A DNA stretch of 64,000 bases from the human T2T-CHM13v2.0 reference genome, Homo sapiens: NCBI RefSeq assembly GCF_009914755.1, contig NC_060930.1; one strand, written 5' to 3'. Position 1 is the stretch's first letter; every line of letters starts with the position of its first letter. Shown one piece after another: positions 52,429 through 56,511 of this stretch. A program made the position numbers and the translations under genes. Below the pieces are notes generated by a model that made no database searches, was not told the origin of the DNA, and saw only the letters and a program-made list of their open reading frames with translations.

Positions 52429-54010
52429 TTTTTTTTTTTTTTTTTTATTATACTCTAAGTTTTAGGGTACATGTGCACATTGTGCAGGTTAGTTACATAT
52501 GTATACATGTGCCATGCTGGTGCGCTGCACCCACTAATGTGTCATCTAGCATTAGGTATATCTCCCAATGCTATCCCTCCCCCCTCCCCCGACCCCACCA
52601 CAGTCCCCAGAGTGTGATATTCCCCTTCCTGTGTCCATGTGATCTCATTGTTCAATTCCCACCTATGAGTGAGAATATGCGGTGTTTGGTTTTTTGTTCT
52701 TGCGATAGTTTACTGAGAATGATGGTTTCCAATTTCATCCATGTCCCTACAAAGGATATGAACTCATCATTTTTTATGGCTGCATAGTATTCCATGGTGT
52801 ATATGTGCCACATTTTCTTAATCCAGTCTATCATTGTTGGACATTTGGGTTGGTTCCAAGTCTTTGCTATTGTGAATAGTGCCGCAATAAACATACGTGT
52901 GCATGTGTCTTTATAGCAGCATGATTTATACTCATTTGGGTATATACCCAGTAATGGGATGGCTGGGTCAAATGGTATTTCTAGTTCTAGATCCCTGAGG
53001 AATCGCCACACTGACTTCCACAATGGTTGAACTAGTTTACAGTCCCACCAACAGTGTAAAAGTGTTCCTATTTCTCCGCATCCTCTCCAGCACCTGTTGT
53101 TTCCTGACTTTTTAATGATTGCCATTCTAACTGGTGTGAGATGATATCTCATAGTGGTTTTGATTTGCATTTCTCTGATGGCCAGTGATGATGAGCATTT
53201 CTTCATGTGTTTTTTGGCTGCATAAATGTCTTCTTTTGAGAAGTGTCTGTTCATGTCCTTCGCCCACTTTTTGATGGGGTTGTTTGTTTTTTTCTTGTAA
53301 ATTTGTTTGAGTTCATTGTAGATTCTGGATATTAGCCCTTTGTCAGATGAGTAGGTTGCGAAAATTTTCTCCCATGTTGTAGGTTGCCTGTTCACTCTGA
53401 TGGTAGTTTCTTTTGCTGTGCAGAAGCTCTTTAGTTTAATTAGATCCCATTTGTCAATTTTGGCTTTTGTTGCCATTGCTTTTGGTGTTTTGGACATGAA
53501 GTCCTTGCCCACGCCTATGTCCTGAATGGTAATGCCTAGGTTTTCTTCTAGGGTTTTTATGGTTTTAGGTTTAACGTTTAAATCTTTAATCCATCTTGAA
53601 TTGATTTTTGTATAAGGTGTAAGGAAGGGATCCAGTTTCAGCTTTCTACATATGGCTAGCCAGTTTTCCCAGCACCATTTATTAAATAGGGAATCCTTTC
53701 CCCATTGCTTGTTTTTCTCAGGTTTGTCAAAGATCAGATAGTTGTAGATATGCGGCATTATTTCTGAGGGCTCTGTTCTGTTCCATTGATCTATATCTCT
53801 GTTTTGGTACCAGTACCATGCTGTTTTGGTTACTGTAGCTTTGTAGTATAGTTTGAAGTCAGGTAGTGTGATGCCTCCAGCTTTGTTCTTTTGGCTTAGG
53901 ATTGACTTGGCAATGCGGGCTCTTTTTTGGTTCCATATGAACTTTAAAGTAGTTTTTTCCAATTCTGTGAAGAAAGTCATTGGTAGCTTGATGGGCAAGG
54001 TAATTTACAG
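52429..54010 (-). mobile_element. L1-D: 5'-truncated L1HS-Ta1 (~1.6 kb) with a 15-bp 5' inversion
   Basis: Minus strand shows Ta diagnostics GATGACACATTAG (ACA) and AACTTAGAGTATAAT (G), plus Ta-1 diagnostic CCCAAATGAGTATAAA. Pure T20 tail; exact 13-bp TSD ATTCAACATTCTT at 52416-52428 and 54011-54023. Confidence 0.97.
52652..53995 (-). pseudogene. Uninterrupted C-terminal ~447 aa of L1 ORF2p (including the cysteine-rich domain), lacking promoter, EN and RT
   Basis: ORF-track protein [30 protein letters not shown]...[18 protein letters not shown]...[10 protein letters not shown] is the L1HS ORF2p C-terminus. Confidence 0.95.
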
Positions 54011-56511
54011 ATTCAACATTCTTAAATAAAAGAATTTTAAGCCTAGAATTTTATATCCAGCCAAACTAAGCTTCATAAGTGAAAGAAAAATAAAATCCTT
54101 TACAAACAAGCAAATGTTGAGATACTGTGTCACCACCAGGCCTGCCTTACAAGAACTTGTGAAGGAAGCACTAAATATGGAAAGGAAAAACCGGTATTAA
54201 CCACTGGAAAAACATGTAGAGACCAGAGACACTATGAAGAAACTGCATTAAATAAAATTTCAGGCCAATATCCCTGATGAACACCAATGTGAAAATCCTC
54301 AATAAAATACTGGCAAACCGAATCCGGCAGCACTTATCCACCATGATGAAGTCAGCTTCATCCCTGGGATGCAAGGCTGGTTCAACATACACAAATCAAT
54401 AAACGTAATCCATCACATAAACAGAACCAATAACAAAAACCACATGATTATCTCAATAGACACAGAAAAGGCCTTCAATAAATTCAACAACCCTTCATTC
54501 TAAAATCTCTCAATAAACTAGGTATTGATGGAATGTATCTCAAAATAATAAGAGCAATTAATGATGAACCCACAGCTAATATACTAAATGGGCAAAAGCT
54601 GGAAGCATTCCCTTTGAAAACCAGCACAAGACAAGGATGCCCTCTCTCACCACTCCTATTCAACATAGTATTGGAAGTTCTGGCCAGGGCAATCAGGCAA
54701 GAGAAAGAAATAAGGAGTATTCAAATAGGAAGAGGAGAAGTCACATTGTCTTTGTTTGCAGATGACATGATTATATATTTAGAAAACCCCATCGTCTCAG
54801 CCCAAAATCTCCTTAAGCTGGTAAGCAACTTCAGCAAAGTCTCAAGATACAAAACCAATGTGCAAAAATCACAAGCATTCCTACACACCAACAATAGACA
54901 GAGAGCCAAATCATGAGTGAACTTCCATTCACAACTGCTACAAAGAGAATAAAATATCTAGAAATAAAACTTACAAGGGTTGTGCAGGACCTCTTCAAGA
55001 AGAACTACAAACCACTGCTCGAGGAAATAAGTGAGGACATAAACAAATGGAAAAACATTCCATGCTAATGATAGGAAGAATCAATATCGCAAAAGTGGCC
55101 ATACTGCCCAAAGTAATTTATAGATTCAATGCTATCCCCATCAAGCTACCATTGACTTTCTTCACAGAATTAGAAAAAAGTACTTTAAATTTCATATGGA
55201 ACCAAAAAAGAGCTCATGTAGCCAAGACAATCCTAAGCAAAAAGAACAAAGCTGGAGGCATCACATTACCTGACTTCAAACTATACTATAAGGCTACATT
55301 AACCAAAACAGCACAGTACTGGTACCAAAATAGATATATAGACCAATGGAACAGAACAGAAGTCTCAGAAATAATGCCACATATCTATGTGATCTTTGAC
55401 AAACCTGACAAAAACAAGCAATGGGAAAAGGATTCCCTATTTAATAAATGGTATTGAGAAAATTCGCCATATGGAAAAAACTGAAACTGGACCCCTTTCT
55501 TACACCTTATACAAAAATTAACTCGAGATGGATTAAAGACTTAAACATAAGACTTAAAACCATAAAAATCCTAGAAGAAAACCTAGGCAATACCATTCAG
55601 GATGTAAGCATGGGCAAAGACTTCATGACTAAAACACAAAAAGCAATGACAACAAAAGCCAAAATTGACAAATAAGATCTAATTAAACTAAGGAGCTTCT
55701 GCACAGCAAAAGAAACTATCATCAGAGTGAACAGGCAATCTACAGAATGGGAGAAAATTTTTGCAATCTATCCTTTTGACAAAGGGCTAATATCCAGAAT
55801 CTATAAGGAACTTAAATAAATGTACAAAAAAAAAAACCAACGCCATTAAAAAGTGGGCAAAGGATATGAACAGACACTTCTCAAAAGAAGATATTTATGC
55901 AGCCAATAAACATATGAAAAAAAGCTCATCATCACTGGTCATTAGAGAAATGCAAATCAAAACCACAATGAGACACTATCTCATGCCAGTTAGAATGGTG
56001 ATTGCTAAAAAGTCAGGGAACAGCAGATTCTGGAGAGGATGTGGAGAAATAGGAGCGCTTTTACACTCTTGGTGGGAGTGTAAATTAGTTCAACCATTGT
56101 GGAAGACAGTGTGGTGATTCCTCAGTGATCTAGAACCAGAAATACCTTTTGACCCAGCAATCCCATTACTGGGTATATGCCCTAGAGATTACAAATCATT
56201 CTACTATAAAGACACATGCACACGTATGTTTATTGCAGTACTATTCACAATAGCAAAGACTTGAAACCAACCCAAATGGCCATCAATGATAGACTGGATA
56301 AAGAAAATGTGGCATATATACACCATGGAATACTGTGCAGCCATAAAAAGGATAAGTTCATGTCCTTTGCTGGGACATGGATGAAGCAGGAAACCATCAT
56401 TCTCAGCAAACTAACACAGGAATAGAAAACCAAACACCGCATATTCTCACTCATAAGTGGGAGTTGAACAATGAGACACATTGATACAGGGAGGGGAACA
56501 TCACACACTGG

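What the first reader, a model, noticed from the sequence alone, without database searches (positions are those of the whole stretch)
53990..54023. 15-bp twin-priming micro-inversion at the 5' end of the L1HS insertion
Seen: the minus-strand L1HS stops at 53995 (CCCATCAAGCTACC in L1 sense). 53996-54010 is CAAGGTAATTTACAG, plus-strand L1 sequence that runs straight into the TSD ATTCAACATTCTT. L1HS ORF2 reads CAAGGTAATTTACAG-ATTCAA-TGCCATC-CCCATCAAG, so the TSD end has 6 nt of complementarity (ATTCAA) to the RNA, 15 nt were copied in inverted orientation, and 7 nt (TGCCATC) were lost. The neighbouring L1-C reads CAAAGTAATTTATAG at the equivalent place (55109-55123), so the template was L1HS rather than local DNA. 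Known: twin priming gives 5' inversions, usually much longer. Inference: this is an aborted twin-priming event, small enough to be annotated as simple truncation plus 'untemplated' bases.
Basis: partly seen in the sequence, partly recalled or inferred. Interest (0 to 1): 0.7.

Follow-up and report, generated by a model that had tools for sequence, protein, structure and literature searches.

The report
Fifteen-base twin-priming inversion at L1 end
A young human L1 retrotransposon copy carries, between its cut-off front end and the duplicated target site, 15 bases copied backwards from the L1 sequence just upstream, which is the known "twin priming" insertion accident in an unusually tiny form.

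Summary
A minus-strand, 5'-truncated L1HS-Ta copy (body 52447-53995, A18 tail 52429-52446) is flanked by an exact 13-bp target-site duplication (52416-52428 and 54011-54023). The 15 bases at 53996-54010 are not host sequence. In 25 of 25 usable paralogues of the host L1, the target sequence runs straight on, without them.

Those 15 bases, plus the first 6 of the duplication, match natural L1HS copies exactly over 21 nt in the opposite orientation. The match begins 7 bases upstream of the truncation point in all 9 copies tested. This is the geometry of twin priming. The 3' end left by the second-strand nick (...TTGAAT-3') pairs with ATTCAA in the L1 RNA. It is extended for only 15 nt and then continues on the first cDNA.

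Four ordinary inverted L1 copies in the same genome show the same layout, with inverted parts of 167, 267, 404 and at least 906 nt.

Which polymerase acted, and why synthesis stopped after 15 nt, cannot be read from the sequence.

This is an extreme-length member of a known kind and of modest interest. Its main value is as a pointer: some "extra nucleotides" at L1 5' junctions may be unrecognised micro-inversions. I could not survey that here.

The parts
51027..52415 (+). Left part of the old host L1 (sense on the + strand), up to the target site
   Evidence: window 51027-52428 aligns at 89.5% over 1408 nt to the paralogous old L1 copy L043.
52416..52428 (+). Left copy of the 13-bp target-site duplication ATTCAACATTCTT. 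Its 3' end is the first-strand nick (TTCTT/AAAT) that primed on the poly(A).
   Evidence: exact duplicate. (pre-insertion sequence inferred from 25 paralogues).
52429..52446 (-). Poly(A) tail of the L1HS insertion (18 T on the + strand)
   Evidence: counted on the ruler.
52447..53995 (-). Non-inverted, 5'-truncated L1HS-Ta body (1549 nt: 3' part of ORF2 plus the 3' UTR). This is the first-strand cDNA product.
   Evidence: 99.6% identity (6 mismatches in 1563, no gaps) to the natural copy L012; the 352 nt near the 3' end (52449-52800) are 100% identical to at least 40 other copies. ACA at the 3' UTR position that I recall as diagnostic for Ta.
53996..54010 (+). 15-nt inverted L1HS segment CAAGGTAATTTACAG (L1 sense on the + strand). 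Read as cDNA primed from the second-strand nick.
54011..54016 (+). ATTCAA: 6 nt shared by the duplication and the L1HS sequence that follows the 15-mer. Read as the primer-RNA annealing site.
   Evidence: the inverted match runs 53996-54016, 21 nt at 100%..
54011..54023 (+). Right copy of the 13-bp target-site duplication
54024..56735 (+). Remainder of the host L1, with an internal deletion near 54250-54255. It contains the homologous but diverged 15-mer at 55109-55123.
   Evidence: 54011-54255 aligns to L043 at 81%, and 54250-56735 aligns to L012 (sense) positions 595-3061 at 85.4%..

Best explanation
This is a single L1HS-Ta retrotransposition event into an older, oppositely oriented L1, resolved by twin priming with an extremely short second cDNA.

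Shown by the sequence:
- The + strand was nicked at TTCTT/AAAT, and its 3' end primed on the poly(A).
- The first cDNA runs 1549 nt and ends at the complement of CCCATC.
- The second nick, 13 nt away on the minus strand, left a 3' overhang ending ...GTTGAAT-3'.

Inferred:
- That overhang paired with ATTCAA in the same L1 RNA, 7 nt upstream of where the first cDNA ended.
- It was extended on the RNA for 15 nt, giving CTGTAAATTACCTTG on the minus strand.
- The growing end then moved, without microhomology, onto the 3' end of the first cDNA and copied it as second strand.
- The 7 RNA bases between the two priming products (TGCCATC) were lost.

Not resolved:
- Which enzyme made the 15 nt: ORF2p, or a repair polymerase able to copy RNA.
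- Why synthesis stopped: an early switch, a broken RNA template, or poor processivity from an unloaded primer.
For: The coordinates and exact repeats were read directly.

Natural L1HS copies carry the 15-mer, the ATTCAA and the 7 skipped bases in exactly this order (12 of 23 copies). The inverted 21-nt exact match lies 7 nt from the main alignment in 9 of 9 copies used.

Only a sense-polarity template (RNA) can pair with the overhang. The first cDNA carries TTGAAT at that place, which is identical to the overhang end rather than complementary to it (reasoned).

There are 6 nt of microhomology at the duplication/inverted joint and none at the internal joint. This agrees with the published pattern. 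Only 28 of 605 5'-inverted L1s lack microhomology at the 5' junction, about 70% have 2-5 bp, and microhomology is less frequent at the inversion junction (PMC2912911, passages). The 13-bp duplication fits the 10-20 bp reported for inverted L1s (PMC4245944, passages). A 7-nt gap is typical: 132 of 287 inverted insertions have the two cDNAs within 20 bp of each other (PMC12016303, passages).

Four ordinary inverted L1s from the same genome show the same layout: L075, L081, L091 and L009.

The junction is unique in the genome. With the 111-nt junction query, only the window's own place matches over 1-111 at 100%, among 40 scored of 72 candidates.

The 15-mer is absent from the target in 25 of 25 usable host paralogues.
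Against: The inverted part is 15 nt. Published medians are 751 bp (germline) and 292 bp (somatic), and the controls here had at least 167 nt, so this is an outlier of the class.

No true empty allele or ape orthologue was seen.

The 15-mer cannot be tied to the same RNA molecule as the body. Its C variant is shared by only 12 of 23 closely related copies, and 7 have T.

Nothing in the sequence identifies the polymerase.

My small probe found no second micro-inversion (0 of 4 junctions seen).
Confidence: 0.85

Rival explanations
1. Templated filler from end joining on a DNA template. During repair of the 5' junction, a repair polymerase copied 15-21 nt from another L1 DNA (a genomic copy or a second cDNA molecule) rather than from the inserting RNA.
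For: Extra nucleotides at LINE 5' junctions are reported to be templated from genomic or LINE DNA flanking the junction through transient annealing (review PMC4760211, section 5 read). L1 sequence is abundant, so an L1 template is always near. The host L1 itself carries the homologous site 1.1 kb away.
Against: The nearest DNA template (55109-55123) differs at 2 of 15 bases. A template picked at random from L1 DNA would not be expected to start 7 nt from this insertion's own truncation point, nor to sit flush with 6 nt of microhomology to the overhang. If instead the first cDNA's 3' end (...GATGGG-3') had been the primer, it has no complementarity to the template flank, which would need ...CTGCC-3'.
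Confidence: 0.07
2. Post-insertion rearrangement. The L1 first inserted as a simple truncation starting at CAAGG. Later the 15 nt were flipped between the 6-nt inverted repeats TTGAAT and ATTCAA, and 13 nt were deleted.
For: In the hypothetical precursor, TTGAAT (the end of the duplication) and ATTCAA (L1) would flank the 15-mer as inverted repeats, which could in principle mediate an inversion.
Against: It needs an inversion and then a separate 13-nt deletion that removes one repeat arm. The element has only 6 substitutions in 1563 nt relative to L012, and the 352 nt near its 3' end are identical to at least 40 copies. One twin-priming event explains everything at once.
Confidence: 0.03
3. 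Untemplated or random filler that matches L1 by chance.
For: 14.6% (160) of 5'-truncated L1 insertions carry extranucleotides at the 5' junction (PMC2912911, Table 4 as quoted in the passages). Exact inverted 14-15-mers do occur by chance elsewhere between the element and L1 copies, with E 0.15-0.5.
Against: The match is exact over 15 nt, or 21 nt with the microhomology. It lies at the one place and in the one orientation that twin priming predicts. E is 8e-5 without the adjacency requirement, and about 1e-7 for a 15-mer within about 25 nt of the breakpoint (my arithmetic).
Confidence: 0.01

Closest known systems
Canonical twin-priming 5' inversion of L1 (Ostertag and Kazazian 2001; paper not held, known to me from citations)
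   Same: Two oppositely oriented pieces of one L1 lie within one pair of duplications. The inverted piece comes from just upstream of the non-inverted piece. There is microhomology at the duplication/inverted joint, a small loss at the internal joint, a poly(A) tail and an endonuclease-type nick site. The same layout was seen here in L075, L081, L091 and L009.
   Different: The inverted piece is 15 nt rather than hundreds. Published medians are 751 and 292 bp, and the controls here had 167, 267, 404 and at least 906 nt. It is too short to be mapped as an L1 fragment, so mapping-based callers would class the copy as a simple truncation. PMC12016303, for example, needs two L1 areas mapped in different orientations.
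Twin priming with an unusually short non-inverted part: L1s with a 5' poly(T) (Meyer et al. 2010, PMC2837659; abstract and section 10 read)
   Same: One of the two cDNAs of a twin-priming event is so short that standard screens miss the inversion. The authors make the same argument about detection bias.
   Different: It is the mirror image. There the first (poly(A)-primed) cDNA is the tiny one. Here the second (internally primed) cDNA is.
Templated 5' extra nucleotides of LINE inserts (Kajikawa et al. 2012, as summarised in PMC4760211; original not held)
   Same: A short stretch between target and LINE 5' end is copied from a nearby template after annealing of ends.
   Different: The template there is flanking genomic or LINE DNA. 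Here the copied stretch is absent from the inserted DNA and fits only the L1 RNA upstream of the truncation point.
Short templated insertions of polymerase-theta-mediated end joining (recalled; the search gave only general reviews, which I did not read)
   Same: A 3' end anneals at a few bases of microhomology, is extended for 5-30 nt, then moves to another partner.
   Different: No evidence here for that enzyme. The template would have to be RNA.

Membership tests
Twin-priming L1 insertion | Two segments of the same L1 in opposite orientation inside a single pair of target-site duplications | tested here: met
   Sense body 52447-53995 (-), inverted 53996-54010/54016 (+), duplications at 52416-52428 and 54011-54023.
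Twin-priming L1 insertion | The inverted segment derives from L1 sequence lying immediately 5' of the start of the non-inverted segment (small gap or overlap) | tested here: met
   7 reference bases are skipped between the two alignments in 9 of 9 natural L1HS copies.
Twin-priming L1 insertion | The 3'-most L1 position of the inverted segment abuts the 5' duplication, usually with microhomology to the overhang | tested here: met
   6 nt (ATTCAA, 54011-54016) are shared by the duplication and L1. Controls L075, L081 and L091 show 2, 4 and 2 nt by my reading.
Twin-priming L1 insertion | Hallmarks of endonuclease-dependent target-primed reverse transcription: poly(A), a 10-20 bp duplication, a T-rich/A nick site | tested here: met
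   A18 tail, 13-bp duplication, TTCTT/AAAT.
Twin-priming L1 insertion | Both cDNAs copied from one and the same RNA molecule | not testable with these tools
   The 15-mer carries the C variant found in 12 of 23 close copies. That is compatible with a single RNA but not diagnostic.
Twin-priming L1 insertion | The insertion-free allele lacks the inverted segment | tested here: inconclusive
   No empty allele or ape orthologue was available. As a surrogate, 25 of 29 host paralogues had the exact 12-nt anchor, and all 25 continue directly with the AAAGAAAAG-type right flank. The other 4 lacked the exact anchor and were dropped.
L1HS-Ta subfamily | ACA at the diagnostic 3' UTR position (diagnostic recalled; also mentioned in PMC7026601 passages) and near-identity to other young copies | tested here: met
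   ACA is seen in the minus-strand read. The 352 nt near the 3' end (52449-52800) are 100% identical to all 40 scored hits of 1404 candidates. Identity to L012 is 99.6% over 1563 nt.

The most novel reading that the evidence does not exclude
Micro twin priming may be a hidden, recurrent class. A measurable share of the 'extranucleotides' recorded at about 15% of 5'-truncated L1 junctions would then be inverted cDNAs of under about 30 nt, primed from the second-strand overhang on the L1 RNA. Second-strand priming on RNA would be attempted far more often than the 20-30% of insertions that show a visible inversion, and it would usually be abandoned early in favour of the first cDNA.
Probability: 0.3. 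Interest if true: 0.5.

Novelty: new member of a known kind. Interest (0 to 1): 0.3.

Why it matters
The locus adds nothing new to the mechanism of twin priming. It does show that the length of the second cDNA can go down to 15 nt. That is below what mapping- or RepeatMasker-based pipelines can call, so such copies are filed as "5'-truncated with extra nucleotides".

If the length of the second cDNA falls off roughly exponentially around the published medians, a few per cent of twin-priming events should have inverted parts under 30 nt. This is my inference and is not tested.

Counting such events in complete genomes and pangenome insertion call sets would correct the estimated rate of twin priming. 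It would also explain part of the "untemplated" bases at L1 5' junctions. And it would give a read-out of how often the second-strand overhang engages the RNA before the first cDNA is finished.

Tried and rejected
This was not possible.

I then probed 20 of the 40 hits with 800-nt upstream stretches.
- 16 run on collinearly.
- 1 is a simple truncation (L084, no extra bases seen at the joint).
- 3 are ordinary inversions.

So only 4 junctions were seen and none was a micro-inversion. This says nothing about frequency.

(2) Local DNA template. The host L1 site at 55109-55123 was rejected because it has 2 mismatches.

(3) Source element already carrying the joint. No other place in this genome matches the 111-nt junction query from base 1 at 100%. 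L007 aligns from base 4 at 95% through chance similarity of its flank.

(4) Snap-back of the first cDNA. Rejected by reasoning. It would leave both arms of a palindrome, and the cDNA lacks the copied stretch.

(5) Literature on inverted parts under 30 bp. The searches were made, and I read passages. I found no description of such micro-inversions. However, Ostertag and Kazazian 2001, Gilbert et al. 2005 and Ichiyanagi et al. 2007 are not held. Kajikawa 2012, Szak 2002 and Symer 2002 were not seen either. These are the papers most likely to mention one, so I do not claim it is unpublished.

(6) Supplements of PMC2912911. Only the list of 4 small PDFs was seen and none was opened. Junction tables there or in other papers could bear on the frequency question.

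Full report
**What is there**

Read on the minus strand, window 54040-52400 shows the following in order:
- host sequence;
- AAGAATGTTGAAT;
- CTGTAAATTACCTTG;
- an L1 sequence beginning CCCATCAAGCTACC and running 1549 nt to ...GAGTATAAT;
- 18 A;
- AAGAATGTTGAAT again;
- host sequence.

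On the + strand the repeated 13-mer is ATTCAACATTCTT. It occurs exactly at 52416-52428 and 54011-54023 and nowhere else exactly in the window. The 15-mer CAAGGTAATTTACAG at 53996-54010 is unique in the window. The nearest relative is CAAAGTAATTTATAG at 55109-55123, with 2 mismatches.

**The element is a young L1HS-Ta**

- The 352 nt near its 3' end (52449-52800) are 100% identical to all 40 scored hits of 1404 candidates in the same genome.
- The whole body is 99.6% identical to the natural copy L012: 6 mismatches in 1563 and no gaps.
- The 3' UTR shows ACA at the position I recall as diagnostic for the Ta subset.

**The host**

The insertion lies antisense inside an old L1 on the + strand.
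- Window 51027-52428 aligns to a paralogous old copy (L043) at 89.5%.
- The alignment resumes at 54011-54255.
- After an internal deletion, the host continues at 54250-56735 at 85% identity to the L1HS copy.

The "neighbouring L1-C" of the finding is therefore the same host element.

No empty allele was available, so I used host paralogues as a surrogate. Of 29 paralogous copies fetched, 25 had the exact 12-nt anchor at the homologous place; the other 4 lacked it and were dropped. All 25 run straight from ...CCAATATTCAACATTCTT into AAAGAAAAGAATTTT-like sequence, and 16 match that exactly. The window's right flank reads AAATAAAAGAATTTT. So the 15-mer is not host sequence. The first-strand nick was TTCTT/AAAT.

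**Origin of the 15-mer**

I fetched natural L1 copies from the same genome with the 396 nt downstream of the breakpoint.
- Of 30 loci, 24 had my exact 18-nt anchor. One of these is the window itself. The 6 without the anchor were dropped.
- Of the 23 remaining, 12 read CAAGGTAATTTACAG ATTCAA TGCCATC CCCATCAAGC.
- 7 read TATAG for TACAG, and 4 have other single changes.

blastn of the element with its flanks against 9 of the C-variant copies gave the same result in all 9.
- The main hit covers window 53995-52433.
- The second hit is a 21-nt, 100% match for window 54016-53996 in the opposite orientation, with exactly 7 reference bases between the two hits.
- Its E-value over the whole search space is 8e-5, before requiring adjacency.
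- Chance inverted matches of 14-15 nt do occur elsewhere (E 0.15-0.5), which is why position and the 21-nt length matter.

**Mechanism**

The second-strand nick leaves a minus-strand 3' overhang AAGAATGTTGAAT-3'. Its last six bases are complementary to ATTCAA in sense-polarity L1, that is, in the RNA. The first cDNA carries TTGAAT at that place, which is identical to the overhang end and so cannot pair with it.

Extending the overhang on the RNA gives CTGTAAATTACCTTG, exactly as observed. The minus strand then continues with L1 sense sequence from CCCATC, so it switched onto the 3' end of the first cDNA. At that joint there is no shared base: L1 has a fourth C where the window has G.

The reverse scenario has no supporting complementarity. 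In it, the first cDNA end ...GATGGG-3' would prime on an antisense L1 DNA, but the required primer end would be ...CTGCC-3'.

Six nt of microhomology at the duplication joint and none at the inner joint is the asymmetry reported for inverted L1s. Only 28 of 605 lack microhomology at the 5' junction, about 70% have 2-5 bp, and microhomology is less frequent at the inversion junction (PMC2912911, passages). The 13-bp duplication fits the 10-20 bp typical of inverted L1s (PMC4245944, passages). A 7-nt gap fits the finding that 132 of 287 inverted insertions have the two cDNAs within 20 bp (PMC12016303, passages).

**Controls from the same genome**

L009 with its extension L071 is an older L1 (94.5% to L012). 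Its sense part starts at the very same base as here. Its inverted part runs from 594 nt upstream of that start outwards for at least 906 nt, and the 3'-most L1 position lies next to the flank.

Three of the 20 youngest copies probed carry ordinary inversions:

| Locus | Inverted length | Start of the sense part relative to the inverted piece | Microhomology with the duplication |
|---|---|---|---|
| L075 | 167 nt | on the base next to it | 2 nt |
| L081 | about 404 nt | overlaps | about 4 nt |
| L091 | 267 nt | overlaps | 2 nt |

The microhomology values are my reading of the printed junctions. All four loci have the layout I assumed for the test locus. The test locus differs only in the length of the inverted piece.

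**Rivals**

- A DNA template in trans or nearby is disfavoured by the 2 mismatches of the local copy and by the flush position.
- A later inversion between the 6-nt inverted repeats would need an additional 13-nt deletion in an element that has hardly mutated.
- Chance is excluded.
- A source element already carrying the joint was not found. In one search only the window's own place matches the 111-nt junction query from base 1 at 100%, among 40 scored of 72 candidates.

Which polymerase made the 15 nt is open. So is whether synthesis ended by an early switch or at a broken RNA end.

**What is known**

Twin priming is textbook for L1. A published variant has the other cDNA tiny (PMC2837659). 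Templated extra nucleotides at LINE 5' junctions have been described, with DNA templates (PMC4760211).

Current callers define inversions by mapping two L1 pieces (PMC12016303 methods passage). The comparative survey of PMC2912911 used RepeatMasker and excluded insertions into repeats. This copy would have been called truncated with extranucleotides, or not analysed at all.

**Limits**

- No empty allele or ape orthologue was seen.
- There was no real survey: only 4 junctions, with 0 micro-inversions.
- Supplementary tables of junction sequences were not opened (one search gave only a file list).

**Verdict**

It is an extreme-length member of a known kind, of modest interest mainly as a prompt for a junction survey.

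Noticed in passing
L009 (G000:C8:122155112-122158208) with L071, and L007 (G000:C10:100373202-100376309): Two unrelated L1 copies have their sense part starting at the same base (before CATCAAGCTACC, at the run of C) as the window's element. L009 has a long canonical inversion and L007 is a plain truncation. They were picked up because the query ended there, so this is not evidence of a hotspot, but it could be checked.
   Followed up: partly
window 54250-54255: The host L1 has an internal deletion. The alignment jumps from the ORF1/ORF2 boundary region (paralogue L043) to position 595 of the 3.4-kb L1HS reference stretch.
   Followed up: no
L075 with L092 (G000:C4:48701077-48702176): A canonical twin-priming L1HS in which the sense part begins on the base directly after the inverted part's 3'-most base (no gap, no overlap). 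The inverted part is only 167 nt.
   Followed up: yes
L096 (G000:C3:84596204-84596333), downstream of L091: This inverted L1HS has two poly(A) tracts separated by about 21 nt of other sequence, which looks like a short 3' transduction. It is itself inserted into an old L1, at the same ORF2 region that holds the 15-mer homologue.
   Followed up: no
L072-L091 (20 of the 40 hits): Among the 4 copies whose 5' junction lay within the 800 nt probed upstream of the 352-nt hit, 3 were inverted and 1 was simply truncated. This is above the 18-31% inversion rates quoted in the papers read, but the sample is far too small to mean anything.
   Followed up: partly
window 56942-57013: The annotated tRNA-Gln (TTG) gene lies about 200 nt beyond the 3' end of the host L1 alignment (56735). 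Not examined.
   Followed up: no
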